Below are positions 1-12,000 of a DNA stretch of 64,000 nt, piece after piece; the stretch's first letter is position 1; every line of letters starts with the position of its first letter. A program made the position numbers. The stretch is from a virus. The stretch is taken from positions 1 to 64,000 of IMG/VR virus record IMGVR_UViG_3300021957_004671, one strand, 5' to 3'.

Positions 1-3000
1 AATGTGATACAGTCAAGAGTAAAGAAGACCAGCTTGAGGAGACTAGAGTTGGAATTGAGAAGTTGCAACAAGAGTTAGAGGTTGCTGAAAGTCGTATATC
101 AGAGATCTCATCTGTGCAGTCTGAAATTCAGATTAATCAGTCCTCTATTACAGAAAAGACTTGGCAGGTTAATAACTTACAAGATACTAATCAGAAGCTA
201 ACTCGCGATATCGAAAACTTATCTGATGTTAAGACGTCTAAGAATAAAGATGTAAAGCAGTTAGCTAAGTTTAATGACGAGAAAGAAGCTGGTGAGAGAG
301 CTAAAATTACTTTAGTTAACGATAGAAATACATTAAGTATTATCTCTTTCATCTTAAAAGATACTGGTATTAAGACACGAATTATTAAACAGTATGTACC
401 TATTATGAATAAGTTAATCAATAAGTATCTTGCTGCAATGGACTTCTTCGTACAGTTTGAACTAGATGAAGGCTTTAATGAAACTATTAAGTCTAGATAT
501 CGCGATGAGTTCTCTTATGCTTCTTTCTCGGAAGGTGAGAAGATGCGTATTGACTTAGCATTATTGTTTACTTGGAGAGCAGTTGCTAAGATTCGTAACA
601 GCGCATCTACTAATTTACTTATTATGGATGAAGTATTTGATTCCTCTCTCGATACATCTGGTACTGATGAGTTCCTAAAAATCCTAAATGAGTTGACTTC
701 TGACACGAATGTCTTTATAATAAGTCATAAGGGAGACCAACTTATTGACAAGTTCAATAATGTAGTACGCTTTGAGAAATATAAGAACTTTAGTAGGATA
801 GCAGCATGAAGCAAGAAGTAATTTATAAGGAATTAGGTCCTGATGATCTACACCCAGAAAAGAGAACCTGGTACTATGATGATTTCGGTAATCGATTAGA
901 TAAGAGTACTGACTTGCCAGTAGTTATAAAGAAGGCTAGTATCAATAGTGATGAGGTTAAACAAACTCTACTAAATGAGATATACCTTAACGGACCTGCT
1001 TATGAAACCATATAGAGCAATATTTCTAGGTCATCAGAATGATATGCTGAGGCAAGTAATACCTGAGTTTGAATTTAACTCTCCTTCTACTGACCCAGTA
1101 AAATTATCACACTTGTTAATTAATGCAATGAAAGATAATAATGGCATTGGACTTGCAGCCAACCAATTGGGTATTAATGTACGTGCTTTTGTTATGTATT
1201 CTGAGCCACCAATAGTTGCCTTTAACCCTAAGATAACATATTATAATGATGAAGAGGTCGTAATGGATGAAGGATGTTTATCTTATCCTGGTGTTACGAT
1301 TAAAGTTAAAAGACCAAGATTTATTCGTGTGAGGTTTCAGGACCCGTACGGTAATGTAGTGGTAAAGAAATTTGATGGAATGGCATCAAGAGTTTTCCAG
1401 CATGAACTGGATCATCTCGATGGAGTGGAATACTTTAAACGTGCGAATAGAATTCATAAAGAACGCTTTCAAAAGAATTGGAAGAAAGTTATCCGCACGG
1501 TTAAAAATCGAGATAAATAATTATACGAGTTGTGCCCTTCCACAACTAAAACAAAACTAGGAGTCAATACGTTGTCCGATAAAAACTATTACTATTCAGA
1601 GATCTTTAACTCTATTCAGGGTGAAGGTCAATATACAGGTGTACCTACTGCCTGGTTAAGATTTTTCCTATGTAATTTACAATGCAATGGCTTTGGTCAG
1701 AAAGAACCGACCAAGCCTGAAACGTATGAGCTCCCATATCAAGAACTAGATGTAAGTCAATATAAGACTATGGATGAACTTCCTGTTTTTGAGTTTGGGT
1801 GCGATTCGTCCTATTCATGGGCTAAGAAATTCAAAGGTCTTAATAATCAAGGAACCCCTAAAGAGATTGCGGATAAGATTCGTCAATGTATGGTAGGTCC
1901 TTGGAATCCTCAAGGTAAATTTAACTTTAATAATTCTGAACGTCATATGTGCTTTACTGGCGGTGAGCCTCTGATGAAGCATGGGCAAGAATGTTCTGTA
2001 GATATTATGAAAGTATATGAAGAGGAACGTGACCTACCTAAGTTTGTTACTTACGAAACTAATGGTACTCAAAAGCTTCATGATAAGTTCTTACAATACT
2101 ATGCTGAGTATAGAGATGTATGGGGCGGTGAATTATTCCTCTCTGTAAGTCCTAAGCTATGGTCTGTTGCTGGTGAAGAAGCTAAACGTGCTATTAAGCC
2201 GGAAGTAGTTGCCTCTTATCAAGAGGTATGTCATAATGGACAATTGAAGTTCGTTATTAACGGTACTGATGAGTCGTGGTCTGAACTCGATGATGTTATC
2301 GCTGCGTTTAGATATCATGGTGTCGATTGGCCTATTTGGATTATGCCAGCTGGAGCAACTGTCGAAGGGCAGAAGATATGCGATGCTGATGTAGCCACCG
2401 AGGCATTTAATCGTGGTTATAATGTAAGTGCGAGAGTACATACTTATCTGTGGGGCAATAAAATTGGTGTTTAACTATGAAGTGTTAGATATTTTCAATA
2501 AAGAAGATATTAAACTTTTTAATAAAATATATGATGAGTGTACTAACGAGAGAGTGAAGCGATTGCATAATCTCTTTTATGTTGATTATAGAAATATACC
2601 GTCTGATAAGTCTGGTGTTATTAAAGACAAGCTTGGTAAGCACTTCAAGTTAAATGCTGATAGAAATTATTTTTTAAATTATACAGAAGGCTCATTTACT
2701 AGACGTCATGCGGATGTTGGTCAGCAGTCTCAGTGTACAGTTATTACTTTACTTGAGAAGTCTGATGATCTAATAGGTGGAGAGACGATTGTATATACAA
2801 AGCATTATAAAAAAGATGATTTTGAGTTTGATGTAAATAGATATATGCGTAAAGATGACGCAGATGATGAGCAGGGTGCCGATATTATACCTCATGTAGT
2901 AAATTTAGAGGTTGGACAGTCAGTAGTATATGATGTAGAGATGTTGCATGAAGTTGCTGAGGTGCTTAAAGGTAATAGAAAGGTTTTAGTGAGTTGGTTA

Positions 3001-9000: not shown

Positions 9001-12000
9001 ATATGCCTACTATCGAAGACGTGTTGGGTGACCCTCAACCTGTTACTTATGTACCTTTCCGTAATATGATTCTCTTATCTCTTACTATGTCATGTGCTGA
9101 AGCTGCTAATGCTTCTCATGTATTTACAGGACTGCAAGTTCATGATGAGTATGGCTATTGGGATACTTCTCAGAAGTTTGTTGATAGTATGAATGCTGTT
9201 GCTAGTCAGAATAGAACTCACAAGGTAGAGATTGTTGCTCCCTTTAGTCATCTATCTAAAGCAGAAGAGATTAAAATATGTTTGGAAATGGAAAAAGAAC
9301 AGTTGCTATTAAGTACACTTTCATGTTATAATCCAGATAATAAAGGATGGAGTTGTGGAGAGTGTCCTACTTGTGCTGAGCGTATTGCTAACTTCGCTAA
9401 GGCAGGTATTGAGGATCCTATTCCATATCAAAGGCCTATTAACTGGCCGGAACTAATTACAGGGTATCTTACGTAATGTGCGCAATATTTGGATCATATG
9501 ATATAGATAAGTTTAAAGAGCTTGCTGAACTAAACTCTTATAGAGGTCAGCATTCGTATTCTATATCAGCATATATTCCAAAGAGCAAGTCTCTAACTCT
9601 TATCGATAAAGGGTTTGGAGCATTTAAAATGCCGCCTATTGGATTCTATGAAACGGCATACTGGATTGGGCATATTCAAGCGCCTACGTCTGGTGAAAGA
9701 ACTCTTGATACTGTTCATCCTAGTCAAGAAGATAATTCTTGGTTATGGCATAACGGTATTATAAAAGAAGACTTTGTTAAGGAGATGCAAGGTGTGTATG
9801 GAGACCATAGTTGGGATACTCAACTCCTCAACTTATGGTTAAACGATCAGAGATCTCTAGATGAGGTGGATGGTACTTTTAGCTGCTTAAGGTTTAAAGA
9901 TGGGTGCCTTGAGTTATTTCGTAATGAGATCTCGCCGATGTTTGTTGACGGTGAGCTAAATATATCTAGCACTAAGTTTGCTAAATCCTCTAAATCGAAG
10001 GCGAATAAAGTTCTATCTATGAACTTTGATGATAATGTACTCGTGGACGGACCTTCGTTTACTACTAAAGAAAATCCCTATTATTTTGTGAATGGTGTAT
10101 AATGAAAACTAATTTTGAACTTATTAAAGAATGGTCTGATGAACGTCTTATTACTCATCAAGCTCCTGACCGTAATGGCTTTGTCGCTATGATTGTCGAA
10201 GAGCTAGGTGAGTTTATTGAGGCTAGGACTGAAGAAGAACGCATTGATGCAATGGCAGATATTATTGTTTTTGCATACGGCGAGATAGCCAAGTATGGCT
10301 ACGATGGTAATAAAGTTATGAGCGAGGTTATTAAAGAAATTAATTCTCGTGTCGGCGCTTATGATCCAGCTACTAAGAAGTGGCAAAAAGATAAATCGGC
10401 TGAGGCTCAGGCTAAGTGGTATACTGCTGACCTCGCAAGCTGTAAACTTGATAACAGTACAGGAGTTAAATAATGTTTGTTAATCCAAATCCATATACCA
10501 ATGGTGTAGAAGAAGGTGGAGTGAAAGCTGTATCAGTTGAAGTGACTGCTGCTACAGTAAGAGGCTTCCAAGGTAATCCTCTCGTAAGTACAGAAGATAA
10601 TTACATGAAGCGTGAAACCTATGAATTACCTACGATGATCGATCCAGGTGATCCTAATAAAGAACGAGAGATCTGGCATATGTTTCCAGGCGCATATGAG
10701 TTCACTAGTGATGTGTATGTTAATGTACCTGACGGTCATGTAGCGTATATCGTAGCTACCTCTGATTTGTTTGATGGTGGTGTAACTGTTGATTCATTAA
10801 TCTTTGAGCCAGGATATAAAGGTCTTGTATCAGGTATTCTAAGAGTAGATGGAGGAGAGCTTTTCTTGCAAGCTGGTCAGCCTGTTGCTGAACTAGTAAT
10901 GCAGAAAGTGGAAGGAGCTGCTTAATGGAACTACAAGTTAATATTGATAAGGTACGTGAAAAAAAGCTAATGATTGCTGCACCTATGTATGGTGGCCAAT
11001 GTGCTGGTATGTTTACTAAGTCAACTAATGACCTATCTGCTCTATTTCGAGCTCATAATATTCCGCTTAAGTTTTACTATCTGTTCAATGAGAGTCTGAT
11101 TACTCGTGCACGTAACTACTGTGCTGATGAATTTATGCGAAGTGATTGTACTCATCTTATGTTTATTGACTCCGATATCGGATTTAGTGCTCAGGATGTA
11201 TTAGCAATGCTTTCTATTATTGATGGGCATGAAGATCTCAATGACGGCAAAGCGTTTGATATTATGTGTGGTCCTTATCCTAAGAAATGTATCTCATGGG
11301 AGAAAATTAAGCAAGCTGTCGATATGGGAGCTGCTGATGATGACCCTAATGTACTTGAGAACTTTGTAGGTGATTATGTATTTAATCCTGCTAATGGTAA
11401 AAATACTATTAAGCTAGATAAGCCTCAAGAAGTGCTCGAAGGTGGTACTGGCTTTATGATGATTCGACGTGAGGTATTTGAGAAGTTTCAAGAACAATAT
11501 CCTCAGATGTTATATAAGCCTGATCATGTACGTACTAAAGAGTTTGATGGTTCACGTGAGATCATGGCTTATTTCGATGCGCTTATCGATGATAAGTCTC
11601 AGAATCTAGTACCTGAGATTACAGCCTTCTATGATAATAATCCTAATCCTACTAAGGAAGAGGTAATTGAGTTTCTTGCCAATAAGCGTGAAGGCATTGA
11701 AAGAGAGACATACTCTAATCGCTATCTATCTGAAGACTATATGTTCTGTCAGTGGGTACGTAATATGGGTATGAGTGTATGGTTATGTCCATGGATGAAG
11801 CTGCAGCATGTTGGTAGTTATATCTTTGGAGGTAGTCTAGCAGACTTGGCTGCAGTTGGAGCAACCGCTACCGCTGATCAGTCGCAAGTCAAGCGTAAAT
11901 AATTGGAGTATATATTATGGAATTAAGTGAAGCAGCAGTAGGAGTATTGAAGAATTTCTCTCAGATTAATCCTTCAGTCCTATTCAAACCAGGCAATGAA

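What the first reader, a model, noticed from the sequence alone, without database searches (positions are those of the whole stretch)
1530..11902. Extended 7-deazaguanine cluster that looks like a nucleotide-level pathway for replacing G with a formylated or further-decorated preQ1
Seen in sequence: one tightly coupled run of genes with folE, queD, queE, queC and queF (the full GTP to preQ0 to preQ1 route), a TGT/DpdA-like protein and a PurN-like formyltransferase. It also carries parts a simple base-swap pathway does not need: a Gpt-like PRTase, a P-loop kinase, two MazG-like pyrophosphatases and a dUTPase-fold protein. Established knowledge (from recall): phage que plus dpdA clusters put 7-deazaguanines in DNA, and a PurN paralogue (DpdN) is linked to formyl-preQ1 (fdPreQ1) in a Flavobacterium phage with very high G replacement. 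Inference: PRTase or TGT-like enzyme makes the modified nucleotide, the kinase phosphorylates it, the pyrophosphatases remove dGTP, and gp43 incorporates it. The oxygenases, amidotransferase and GT-A protein could give a derivative not yet described.
Basis: partly seen in the sequence, partly recalled or inferred. Interest (0 to 1): 0.88.

Follow-up and report, generated by a model that had tools for sequence, protein, structure and literature searches.

The report
Phage guanine-replacement operon with nucleotide enzymes
An uncultured marine T4-like phage carries the already described gene set that replaces the guanine of phage DNA with formyl-preQ1; most of its "extra" genes are ordinary neighbours, but a kinase and a dNTP-cleaving enzyme that always travel with the base-swapping enzyme suggest, without proving, that the swap is made on free nucleotides before DNA is copied.

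Summary
Positions 1530-11902 are one same-strand, overlapping run of 18 genes. [quoted passage not shown]

The core is syntenic with Flavobacterium phage immuto (PRTase-FolE-DpdA3-DpdN-kinase-QueF there; QueD lies elsewhere in its cluster), whose DNA has all G replaced by fdPreQ1 (Cui et al. 2023). It is a new member of a known kind. This scan has reported the same theme on other DNA several times.

Most proposed "decorating" genes are not supported:
- The TauD-like and GT-A-like genes are common in T4-like phages that lack que genes.
- The "amidotransferase" is a class-II glutaminase that also sits beside QueC in known dPreQ1 phages.
- Only a small 2OG oxygenase family (2428-3006) is confined to such clusters.

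The nucleotide-level idea gains comparative support. In 19 of 19 dereplicated loci the slot between DpdN and QueF holds a kinase-type gene: the P-loop type, or a DUF3310 protein resembling part of T7 gp1.7. 18 of 19 carry an NTP pyrophosphatase. No substrate was tested, and the published post-replicative model is not excluded.

The parts
1530..2474 (+). QueE-like radical SAM enzyme (7-carboxy-7-deazaguanine synthase)
   Evidence: phrog_2076 4.7e-53. NCBIfam QueE models match the N-terminal 30 residues only. Present in 19/19 full-flank DpdA3 loci.
2428..3006 (+). Small 2OG-Fe(II) oxygenase; the only 'extra' gene confined to DpdA3 clusters; role unknown
   Evidence: PF13640 1e-6. HxD...H...R residues invariant (A7). 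Family of only 67 proteins among 5.8 billion. Every locus seen lies between QueE and the PRTase of a DpdA3 cluster. No match in isolate phages.
3014..3469 (+). Gpt-like purine phosphoribosyltransferase
   Evidence: PF00156 3.5e-13; NCBIfam xanthine PRTase 1.2e-10, below cutoff. Among 50,697 phage records the relatives are found only in the Cellulophaga phiST group, Flavobacterium immuto and one Synechococcus phage. Present in 11/19 loci.
3451..3924 (+). QueD (6-carboxytetrahydropterin synthase)
   Evidence: PF01242 9.7e-14. The sequence shows a CxxxHGY motif.
3925..4587 (+). FolE (GTP cyclohydrolase I)
   Evidence: PF01227 2.8e-59.
4602..5402 (+). DpdA3-type TGT-fold transglycosylase
   Evidence: 54% identity to immuto DpdA and 41% to the CP220 group. 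AF2 pLDDT 94. TGT is the top fold match: Foldseek 4e-8, Z 17.6. Invariant D52, D83, Q114 and D205 line up with E. coli TGT D89, D143, Q187 and D264. No zinc motif.
5399..5908 (+). DpdN-type PurN-like formyltransferase
   Evidence: PF00551 1.1e-7. 38% identity to immuto DpdN. The PurN N-x-H and D catalytic residues are conserved. Lies next to DpdA3 in 76 of 83 loci.
5905..6435 (+). P-loop nucleoside/nucleotide kinase (AAA_28)
   Evidence: PF13521 4.2e-17. Model pLDDT 90.6. Nearest folds are the NadR ribosylnicotinamide kinase domain (Z 18.6), then deoxynucleoside and thymidylate kinases (Z about 15). 14/19 loci carry it; DUF3310 fills the same slot in the other 5.
6428..7381 (+). QueF, two-domain type (preQ0 to preQ1)
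   Evidence: PF14819 6.3e-31 and PF14489 8.3e-19.
7381..7539 (+). 52-aa hydrophobic ORF, unknown function
   Evidence: No family hit. Homologues in 28 loci.
7539..8483 (+). TauD/TfdA-family dioxygenase; probably an unrelated accessory gene lodged in the operon
   Evidence: PF02668 7.1e-19. 78 of 80 viral loci with this family have no que gene but lie near gp45/Prx/gp44. Among DpdA3 loci it occurs only in L003 and L005.
8486..8725 (+). 79-aa ORF, unknown function
   Evidence: PHROG families of unknown function only. No Pfam hit. Not MazG-like by hhalign.
8712..9476 (+). QueC (preQ0 synthase)
   Evidence: PF06508 5.3e-52.
9476..10102 (+). Stand-alone class-II (Ntn) glutamine amidotransferase; proposed ammonia donor for QueC
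   Evidence: Starts with Met-Cys. C2, R23, N93-G94 and D114 are invariant (A4). ESM Atlas neighbours are GATase_6/7, score 0.97, TM 0.83-0.90. Homologues lie beside QueC in Vibrio phages nt-1, VH7D and phi-Grn1. It tracks the QueC subtype that is 55% or more identical.
10102..10473 (+). MazG-like NTP pyrophosphohydrolase
   Evidence: PF01503 7.6e-8. Isolate relatives are mainly Campylobacter phage records (those listed are about 131 kb), plus Vibrio and Alteromonas phages. In L005, L019, L022 and L024 a standard DCD/dUTPase occupies this position instead.
10473..10925 (+). Divergent dUTPase/dCTP-deaminase-fold protein
   Evidence: NCBIfam dUTPase 7.2e-11, below cutoff; Pfam DCD 0.0017. No isolate match.
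10925..11902 (+). GT-A-like protein (phrog_1574); probably not part of the pathway
   Evidence: phrog_1574 7.3e-61. 49-53% identical homologues in Stenotrophomonas DLP_6, Caulobacter Cr30 and Sinorhizobium phiM12, plus matches in 43 Synechococcus phage records; none of these groups appeared among the DpdA3 matches.

Best explanation
This is an immuto-type guanine-replacement module in a marine T4-like phage.

Well supported by homology (about 0.85-0.9):
- FolE, QueD, QueE and QueC make preQ0 from GTP. QueC is probably fed ammonia by the adjacent class-II glutaminase.
- QueF reduces preQ0 to preQ1.
- A DpdA3-type TGT-fold enzyme exchanges guanine for the 7-deazaguanine.
- DpdN formylates the aminomethyl group.
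- The DNA would therefore carry fdPreQ1 in place of G (about 0.7 for this exact product).

Inferred (about 0.45): the exchange is made on free nucleotides rather than on finished DNA. The proposed sequence is:
1. The MazG-like and/or dUTPase-fold enzymes cut dGTP to dGMP.
2. DpdA3 swaps the guanine of dGMP (or deoxyguanosine) for preQ1.
3. DpdN, like its paralogue PurN, formylates a 5'-phosphoribosyl-linked amine.
4. The kinase in the conserved DpdN-QueF slot phosphorylates the product.
5. A host or phage NDP kinase, not looked for here, completes the triphosphate, and the gp43 polymerase incorporates it.
6. The Gpt-like PRTase returns the released guanine to GMP and hence to GTP, the pathway's own precursor.

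The stated confidence is for this nucleotide-level mechanism.
For: Identity:
- Family hits for all five preQ1 enzymes.
- DpdA3 is 54% identical to the immuto protein, and PRTase-FolE-DpdA3-DpdN-kinase-QueF follow in the same order in both.
- Immuto DNA is fully fdPreQ1 (345,000 per 10^6 nt; PMC10516641).
- TGT fold, Z 17.6. The catalytic Asp and Gln residues are invariant and line up with E. coli TGT.
- The PurN catalytic N-x-H and D residues are conserved in DpdN.

Route:
- In 19 dereplicated loci with at least 6 kb on both flanks, the slot between DpdN and QueF holds a P-loop AAA_28 kinase (14) or a DUF3310 protein (5). The DUF3310 protein matches Pfam at 6.7e-10, PHROG 'nucleotide kinase' at 1.8e-16, and residues 121-190 of T7 gp1.7 at hhalign E 2.6e-4.
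- 18/19 carry an NTP pyrophosphatase of one of three kinds: the window's MazG type, a second MazG-like (PRA-PH) type, or the unrelated dUTPase/DCD fold. MazG and a standard DCD/dUTPase replace each other at one position.
- P-loop kinase-type genes also abut DpdA3 in CP220 and in Chryseobacterium phage MA9V-3. In Bacillus BSTP12 the upstream gene shows only a weak P-loop-type match (Septin, E 0.003).
- Among 50,697 phage records the kinase family occurs only in Campylobacter, immuto and Streptomyces phages. The PRTase family occurs only in the phiST group, immuto and one cyanophage.
- DpdA3 lacks the zinc motif and is acidic: net charge -19, family median pI 5.1.
- Cui et al. could not get DpdA3 to work alone in E. 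coli. They cite free ADG nucleoside in CP220-infected cells.
- The phage has its own NrdAB and ThyX.
Against: - Every characterised member of the TGT/DpdA superfamily acts on a polynucleotide, and the only publication on DpdA3 proposes post-replicative insertion.
- No substrate of DpdA3, the kinase, the pyrophosphatases or the PRTase was tested.
- PRTase plus kinase can be read as guanine salvage toward GTP.
- The PRTase is present in only 11/19 loci.
- The kinase fold is nearest to nucleoside kinases and does not identify the substrate.
- Kinase activity of an 87-aa DUF3310-only protein is unproven. The match to T7 gp1.7 covers only its C-terminal third, at 42% hhalign probability.
- The AAA_28 kinase also occurs in Streptomyces phages next to an FkbM methyltransferase, with no DpdA3 gene beside it.
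- The 80 loci are those most similar to the window's DpdA3, not a sample of the whole family.
- Acidity is common in marine phage proteins, and E. coli TGT is itself acidic.
Confidence: 0.45

Rival explanations
1. Published model: DpdA3 is a DNA transglycosylase that replaces G in replicated phage DNA with preQ1 (or formyl-preQ1), and DpdN acts on the base or on DNA. The PRTase and kinase recycle the excised guanine to GMP, GDP and GTP for FolE. The MazG-like and dUTPase-fold proteins are ordinary nucleotide housekeeping genes of T4-like phages.
For: - DpdA3 keeps the TGT fold and the catalytic Asp residues.
- Other DpdA subfamilies insert 7-deazaguanines into DNA; this is Cui et al.'s proposal.
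- The PRTase is Gpt-like, i.e. closest to guanine/xanthine salvage enzymes.
- The cluster sits in a variable region between gp46 and gp45 that also collects unrelated genes such as the TauD-like and GT-A-like ones.
Against: - Complete replacement is otherwise known only from nucleotide-level pathways (established knowledge: T4 hmC, SPO1 hmU, S-2L aminoadenine).
- The kinase slot is filled in 19/19 loci by two unrelated protein families, which points to selection for the slot itself.
- An NTP pyrophosphatase is present in 18/19 loci, with MazG and a DCD/dUTPase replacing each other at one position.
- DpdA3 lacks the zinc subdomain.
- DpdA3 alone was inactive in E. coli.
Confidence: 0.35
2. The sub-clade of this window makes a further-modified base not yet described, for example a hydroxylated or oxidised formyl-preQ1. 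The enzyme responsible would be the cluster-specific 2OG-Fe(II) oxygenase (2428-3006), possibly with the TauD-like enzyme.
For: - The 2OG family is tiny (67 proteins), has an intact HxD...H...R site, and in every locus seen lies between QueE and the PRTase of a DpdA3 cluster.
- Some members carry PF09859, a family I recall as predicted to oxidise nucleic-acid bases (hit listed; the description is from memory).
- The TauD-like gene is kept inside the operon in four independent seawater runs.
Against: - The TauD family is overwhelmingly found without que genes.
- The window has two more 2OG oxygenases outside the cluster, as in cyanophage-like T4 phages.
- The GT-A and the glutaminase are explained otherwise.
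- No chemistry was tested.
- Immuto makes fdPreQ1 without any such oxygenase.
Confidence: 0.12
3. The genes serve host tRNA queuosine supply (an auxiliary metabolic function) rather than DNA modification.
For: The preQ1 pathway is the bacterial queuosine pathway.
Against: - A DpdA3 and a DpdN lie in the same translationally coupled operon, in the same order as in a phage whose DNA was shown to be fully modified.
- No tRNA-type TGT was found: PF01702 gives no hit in the 76-kb record.
Confidence: 0.03

Closest known systems
[quoted passage not shown]
   Same: Same enzyme set and the same order for PRTase-FolE-DpdA3-DpdN-kinase-QueF. DpdA3 is 54%, DpdN 38%, the kinase 35% and QueF 46% identical. 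A MazG-like (PRA-PH) gene is also nearby.
   Different: - The host phage here is a T4-like myovirus with a family B polymerase; immuto has family A.
- QueC with a split glutaminase lies inside the operon.
- QueD lies between the PRTase and FolE here, but upstream of QueE in immuto.
- There is an added 2OG oxygenase, a TauD-like gene and a dUTPase-fold gene.
- The DNA chemistry here is untested.
dADG genomes of Campylobacter Firehammervirus CP220 and dDG genomes of Cellulophaga phage phiST (DpdA3 phages with 100% G replacement)
   Same: DpdA3 homologue, 41% identical to CP220. In CP220 kinase genes lie on both sides of DpdA3. phiST carries the same PRTase family, and a dUTPase/MazG next to its DpdA3 region.
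   Different: Their pathways stop at CDG/ADG or DG. They have no QueF and no DpdN, so the final base differs.
Pre-replicative base-replacement pathways: T4 hmC (gp56 dCTPase, gp42, gp1 kinase) and S-2L aminoadenine (PurZ, MazZ, DatZ)
   Same: By inference only, the same logic: a dNTP-cleaving enzyme removes the canonical nucleotide, an enzyme makes the modified dNMP, and a kinase activates it.
   Different: There is no homology of the key modifying enzyme. The proposed modifying step would be a base exchange by a TGT-fold enzyme, which has no precedent on free nucleotides. None of the specificities is shown.
Gat-QueC fusion of phage 9g type, and the QueC neighbours in Vibrio phages nt-1, VH7D and phi-Grn1
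   Same: A class-II glutaminase is associated with QueC.
   Different: Here the glutaminase is a separate gene downstream of QueC, and QueF is present. The likely role is ammonia supply for preQ0 synthesis rather than archaeosine formation. This is an inference.

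Membership tests
DpdA3 subfamily of TGT/DpdA transglycosylases | Sequence similarity over the full length to DpdA3 of phages with proven complete G replacement | tested here: met
   54% identity over 98% of the length to immuto DpdA (1e-84); 41% to the CP220 group.
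DpdA3 subfamily of TGT/DpdA transglycosylases | TGT (beta/alpha)8 barrel fold | tested here: met
   Model pLDDT 94. The Foldseek top 50 are all TGT/DpdA. Z 17.6, rmsd 2.9 Å over 231 residues to 1iq8; bacterial DpdA 7ui4 is also matched.
DpdA3 subfamily of TGT/DpdA transglycosylases | Catalytic Asp nucleophile, general acid/base Asp and base-binding Asp/Gln of TGT | tested here: met
   Invariant D52, D83, Q114 and D205 lie in motifs that line up with E. coli TGT D89, D143, Q187 and D264. The hhalign statistic is weak (E 0.012), and the assignment of roles to the E. coli residues is from memory. The mapping rests on motifs plus the shared fold.
DpdA3 subfamily of TGT/DpdA transglycosylases | Match to the Pfam TGT model PF01702, and the CxCxxC...H zinc site of TGT | tested here: not met
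   No PF01702 hit at E up to 1-5. No Cys cluster in the sequence. This is typical of DpdA3, which Cui et al. detected only by HHpred.
DpdA3 subfamily of TGT/DpdA transglycosylases | Base-exchange activity, and its substrate (DNA or nucleotide) | not testable with these tools
   Needs enzyme assays.
DpdN (PurN-like preQ1 formyltransferase) | Formyl_trans_N domain with the PurN catalytic Asn-x-His and Asp | tested here: met
   PF00551 scores 32.3 bits against a cutoff of 26.1. The N-x-H-P and VTDxLDGG motifs are conserved in the alignment with E. coli PurN.
DpdN (PurN-like preQ1 formyltransferase) | Encoded next to DpdA3 together with the FolE-to-QueF pathway; related to immuto DpdN | tested here: met
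   Overlaps the DpdA3 stop codon. 38% identity to the immuto gene. Adjacent in 76/83 loci.
preQ1 biosynthesis pathway (FolE, QueD, QueE, QueC, QueF) | All five enzymes present | tested here: met
   Pfam and PHROG hits above their cutoffs. For QueE the NCBIfam models match the N-terminus only.
fdPreQ1 DNA modification system | Virion DNA contains 7-(formylamino)methyl-7-deazaguanine in place of G | not testable with these tools
   Public runs hold only assembled contigs, with no raw signal.
Pre-replicative (dNTP-pool) base-replacement pathway | A canonical-dNTP-removing enzyme, a modified-dNMP-forming enzyme and a kinase specific for the modified nucleotide | tested here: inconclusive
   Candidate genes are present and co-conserved: kinase slot 19/19, pyrophosphatase 18/19. 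Their specificities are unknown, and the kinase fold is nearest to nucleoside kinases.

The most novel reading that the evidence does not exclude
DpdA3 phages, including this one and the published immuto, CP220 and phiST, replace guanine before replication. A TGT-fold enzyme would exchange the base on a free deoxynucleoside or deoxynucleotide. A dedicated kinase and a dGTP-cleaving enzyme would complete a dNTP-pool pathway. This would overturn the published post-replicative model and give the first TGT-family enzyme acting on a mononucleotide. In this sub-clade a private 2OG oxygenase might add a further group.
Probability: 0.4. Interest if true: 0.8.

Novelty: new member of a known kind. Interest (0 to 1): 0.45.

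Why it matters
Complete replacement of guanine makes phage DNA resistant to most restriction enzymes. It also matters for sequencing, for synthetic biology with 7-deazapurines, and for phage-host arms-race studies.

The gene set here is already described, so the window itself is an ordinary new member. It does show that the system sits in an abundant marine T4-like lineage. This phage's own sequence was seen in seawater metagenomes of at least 10 studies, and the DpdA3 family has about 4,000 homologues.

The useful output is comparative:
- It separates true pathway parts (kinase slot, NTP pyrophosphatase, QueC-linked glutaminase, a private 2OG oxygenase) from passenger genes (TauD-like, GT-A-like).
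- It sharpens a testable question that the literature treats as settled: is DpdA3-dependent replacement made on DNA or on nucleotides?

Tried and rejected
- Megablast of the cluster against isolate phages: no match.
- phmmer and profile hmmsearch of DpdA3 against PDB sequences: nothing meaningful.
- PF01702 against the whole 76-kb record: no hit.
- Second MazG-like protein: the 79-aa and 52-aa ORFs show no similarity to MazG or to the dUTPase-fold family by hhalign, and have no Pfam hit even at E 5.
- Streptomyces phage Yaboi gene 96, next to an AAA_28 kinase, was tested as a hidden DpdA3. It is an FkbM methyltransferase.
- Predicted complex of QueC with the glutaminase: the job gave no verdict. 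It is not used as evidence either way.
- Search for the kinase in three kinase-less records: no match, but those records are only 15-24% complete, so this is uninformative. A Pfam-family search over handles failed technically.
The contexts of TauD and 2OG homologues on long contigs could therefore only be sampled through viral contigs.
- Sequencing runs: all holders are kept as assembled contigs, none as raw or Nanopore reads, so no signal of modified G could be read. Laying four runs showed only the same gene order and strain-level SNPs.
- The Crippen et al. 2019 paper on CP220 is not held. Its result is quoted only through Cui et al.
- Net charge of DpdA3 as a sign against DNA binding: weak, because E. 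coli TGT is acidic too.

Full report
**What is there**

The window is part of a 76,198-bp IMG/VR virus record judged 44% complete. It shows the replication module of a T4-like myovirus:
- gp46-like (3-809) and peptide deformylase (975-1520);
- the cluster (1530-11902);
- gp45 (11917-12594), a peroxiredoxin, gp44 (13210-14157), gp62 and RegA;
- a radical SAM protein and Hsp20;
- gp43 family B polymerase (17892-20387) and two further 2OG oxygenases;
- UvsX and gp41; later ThyX, NrdA and NrdB.

gp43 is about 51% identical to cyanomyovirus polymerases, so there is no close cultured relative. Near-identical sequence occurs in seawater metagenomes of at least ten studies from 2015 to 2025. Four runs show the same gene order.

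**Check of the observation**

From 1530 to 11902 there are 18 + strand ORFs, separated by 14 nt or less or overlapping. Profile searches confirm the following:
- FolE, QueD, QueE, QueC and a two-domain QueF;
- a PurN-like protein;
- a 151-aa PRTase, closest to xanthine/guanine PRTases;
- an AAA_28 P-loop kinase;
- a MazG-like (PRA-PH) protein;
- a divergent dUTPase/DCD-fold protein;
- a TauD-family dioxygenase and a small 2OG-Fe(II) oxygenase.

Only one MazG-like protein was found. The small ORFs are not MazG-like.

**The TGT-like protein**

The protein at 4602-5402 has no Pfam, NCBIfam or PDB sequence match. It is 54% identical to the 'DNA guanine transglycosylase' of Flavobacterium phage immuto and 41% identical to proteins of Campylobacter CP220-type phages. 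That places it in the DpdA3 subfamily defined by Cui et al. 2023.

The family is large, with 4,089 homologues. A model built on 30 homologues has pLDDT 94. It matches TGT and DpdA structures before anything else: Foldseek 4e-8, and Z 17.6 over 231 residues.

Read against E. coli TGT fetched here, the invariant motifs correspond one by one:

| DpdA3 (window) | E. coli TGT |
|---|---|
| ILD52NS | ILTD89SGG |
| IVPD83 | IFD143EC |
| VVQ114G | IIQ187G |
| KPHHLLGAGLPQEF | KPRYLMGVGKPEDL |
| WIDTID205TSNP | GIDMFD264CVMP |

The hhalign statistic alone is weak, E 0.012. The base-exchange chemistry therefore appears to be retained. The CxCxxC...H zinc motif and the GGLAVGE segment are absent.

**Closest known system**

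Immuto carries QueD, QueE, PRTase, FolE, a MazG-like 'hydrolase', DpdA3, DpdN, a 'thymidylate kinase' and QueF. From the PRTase onward these follow in the same relative order as in the window; QueD lies upstream of QueE there. Its DNA contains fdPreQ1 in place of all G (345,000 per 10^6 nt).

The window's DpdN keeps the PurN Asn-x-His and Asp catalytic residues. It also keeps a glycine-rich N-terminal loop that aligns with the PurN SGNGSN loop. From memory, that loop holds the 5'-phosphate of GAR.

The best-supported reading is that this phage makes fdPreQ1 DNA. That makes it a new member of a known kind. The scan has reached the same core conclusion on other genomes.

**The 'extra' genes**

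*TauD-like (7539-8483).* An alignment-based scan returned 80 viral loci. 78 of them have no que gene at all but often lie next to gp45, the peroxiredoxin and gp44. The family is therefore a general accessory gene of this variable region. It sits within the operon only in the window's nearest relatives. Its iron motif reads H-x-N rather than H-x-D across the family, which is unexplained.

*GT-A-like (10925-11902).* It belongs to phrog_1574 and occurs at 49-53% identity in Stenotrophomonas, Caulobacter and Sinorhizobium T4-like phages, with further matches in 43 Synechococcus phage records. None of these groups appeared among the DpdA3 matches. It is most likely unrelated to the pathway.

*'Amidotransferase' (9476-10102).* It starts Met-Cys and has invariant C2, R23, N93-G94 and D114. 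Its neighbours in the ESM Atlas are GATase_6/7 proteins. Homologues lie directly beside QueC in Vibrio phages nt-1, VH7D and phi-Grn1. Cui et al. measured dPreQ1 in phi-Grn1 DNA and used the VH7D DpdM. In the related loci it appears only together with the QueC subtype that is 55% or more identical. I read it as a glutaminase subunit feeding ammonia to QueC, not as a decorating enzyme. A complex prediction gave no verdict.

*2OG oxygenase (2428-3006).* This is the exception:
- The family is tiny, 67 proteins in 5.8 billion.
- It has no isolate relative.
- Its HxD...H...R site is intact.
- In every locus seen it lies between QueE and the PRTase of a DpdA3 cluster.

It is the only real candidate for a further modification, and there is no evidence about its substrate.

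**Nucleotide-level or DNA-level?**

Cui et al. argue for post-replicative insertion. Their text never mentions the kinase or the PRTase. They report that DpdA3 did not work in E. coli.

I took 80 viral loci with DpdA3, dereplicated them at 90% identity, and kept those with at least 6 kb on both flanks. That left 19 loci. Presence was scored with iterated profiles.

| Gene | Loci with it (of 19) |
|---|---|
| QueE, QueD, FolE, DpdN, QueF | 19 each |
| P-loop AAA_28 kinase in the DpdN-QueF slot | 14 |
| DUF3310 protein (87-122 aa) in the same slot | 5 |
| Any NTP pyrophosphatase | 18 |
| PRTase | 11 (only with the P-loop kinase) |

- The DUF3310 gene occupies the same translationally coupled slot as the kinase. 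It matches Pfam DUF3310 (6.7e-10) and PHROG 'nucleotide kinase' families (1.8e-16). It also matches the C-terminal third of the T7 gp1.7 nucleotide kinase (hhalign E 2.6e-4, 42% probability). Two unrelated families in one slot point to selection for what the slot does.
- The pyrophosphatases are of three kinds: the window's MazG type, a second MazG-like (PRA-PH) type, and the unrelated dUTPase/DCD fold. A standard DCD/dUTPase sits in relatives exactly where the window has MazG.
- Distant DpdA3 homologues repeat the pattern. CP220 has an HD-AAA_33 gene upstream and an AAA_28 kinase downstream. Chryseobacterium phage MA9V-3 has an AAA_18/33 gene directly upstream and a DCD-like gene nearby. Bacillus phage BSTP12 has only a weak P-loop-type match upstream (Septin, E 0.003).
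- Among isolates, the kinase family is found only in Campylobacter, immuto and Streptomyces phages. The PRTase family is found only in the phiST group, immuto and one cyanophage. The MazG type is found mainly in Campylobacter phage records; those listed are about 131 kb, the size I recall for the deoxyinosine-genome Fletcherviruses, though their genus was not checked.
- The kinase model (pLDDT 90.6) is nearest to the NadR ribosylnicotinamide kinase domain (Z 18.6 and 17.1). Deoxynucleoside kinases and thymidylate kinases follow at Z about 15. It is a nucleoside or nucleotide kinase of undetermined substrate.

**Proposed mechanism (steps inferred unless marked)**

1. GTP is converted to preQ1. 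This step is shown by homology.
2. MazG and/or the dUTPase-fold enzyme convert dGTP to dGMP.
3. DpdA3 exchanges guanine on dGMP or dG for preQ1.
4. DpdN formylates the nucleotide. Its paralogue PurN acts on a 5-phosphoribosyl-linked primary amine of similar reach.
5. The kinase phosphorylates the product, and an NDP kinase (not looked for here) makes the triphosphate.
6. gp43 incorporates it.
7. The PRTase returns free guanine to GMP and GTP.

**Odds**
- Some pre-replicative route: about 0.45.
- The published DNA-level exchange, with PRTase and kinase serving salvage: about 0.35.
- A novel derivative made by the 2OG oxygenase, which is not exclusive of either route: about 0.12.

**Points against the pre-replicative route**
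- All characterised TGT/DpdA enzymes act on polynucleotides.
- The PRTase is not universal.
- The AAA_28 kinase also occurs in Streptomyces phages next to a methyltransferase, with no DpdA3 gene beside it.
- The DUF3310 protein is not a proven kinase.
- The loci sampled are the window's nearer relatives only.

**Verdict**

This is a well-formed but already described system, found here in an abundant uncultured marine phage. Its nucleotide-level idea remains a reasonable, testable challenge to the published model, and it applies equally to the known DpdA3 phages.

Noticed in passing
window 52219-57515 (- strand): The only minus-strand block in the window. It encodes a CHASE2 sensor fused to an adenylate/guanylate cyclase domain (52219-54042), a FecR-like protein (54416-55534) and a protein with a weak curlin-repeat hit. 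A membrane-sensor cyclase is an unusual cargo for a T4-like phage.
   Followed up: no
window 7539-8483 and alignment A2: The phage TauD-like family has W-H-x-N where TauD enzymes, as I recall, have the iron-binding H-x-D. The Asn is nearly invariant across 22 diverse members, while the distal His and the Arg residues are kept. The window's copy also has an insert of about 40 aa that is shared only with its closest relative.
   Followed up: partly
window 975-1520: A peptide deformylase lies 9 nt upstream of QueE. It keeps that position in the T4-like DpdA3 loci (19 loci by tblastn). A deformylase beside a pathway that makes a formylamino base may be coincidence, since pdf is a common marine phage gene, but this was not examined.
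   Followed up: no
L013:11298-11561 and 22 other loci: In a sister clade of T4-like DpdA3 phages, a DUF3310 protein that resembles the C-terminal third of T7 gp1.7 replaces the P-loop kinase between DpdN and QueF. These loci also lack the PRTase.
   Followed up: yes
L005:9635-10583, L019:14385-15332, L022, L024: Relatives carry two tandem dUTPase/DCD-fold paralogues, one standard and one divergent, where the window has MazG plus the divergent paralogue.
   Followed up: partly
window 15206-16867: A 553-aa radical SAM protein lies between RegA and Hsp20, close to the cluster. Its function is unknown.
   Followed up: no
window 46443-47291 and 48534-48956: A SAM-dependent methyltransferase is inserted between nrdA and nrdB, and a SegE-type GIY-YIG homing endonuclease lies just after nrdB.
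   Followed up: no
window 21243-22779: Two tandem PF13759 2OG-Fe(II) oxygenases lie between gp43 and UvsX. 2OG oxygenases are therefore frequent in this genome outside the cluster as well.
   Followed up: no
L164 (Streptomyces phage Yaboi 66862-68260): In 86 Streptomyces phage records the same AAA_28 kinase family is found; in many of those listed, including Yaboi, it sits directly after an FkbM-type methyltransferase, with a MazG-like gene a few kb upstream. This may be another nucleotide-level modification module.
   Followed up: partly
L003:6077-6367: The 97%-identical twin contig has an extra 96-aa ORF between the 52-aa ORF and the TauD-like gene. The window lacks it, which shows recent gene turnover at this spot.
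   Followed up: no
window 12482-13180: The listed peroxiredoxin ORF overlaps the end of gp45. The Redoxin domain begins at residue 86 and there is an internal Met at about residue 38, so the true start is probably downstream of the listed TTG.
   Followed up: no
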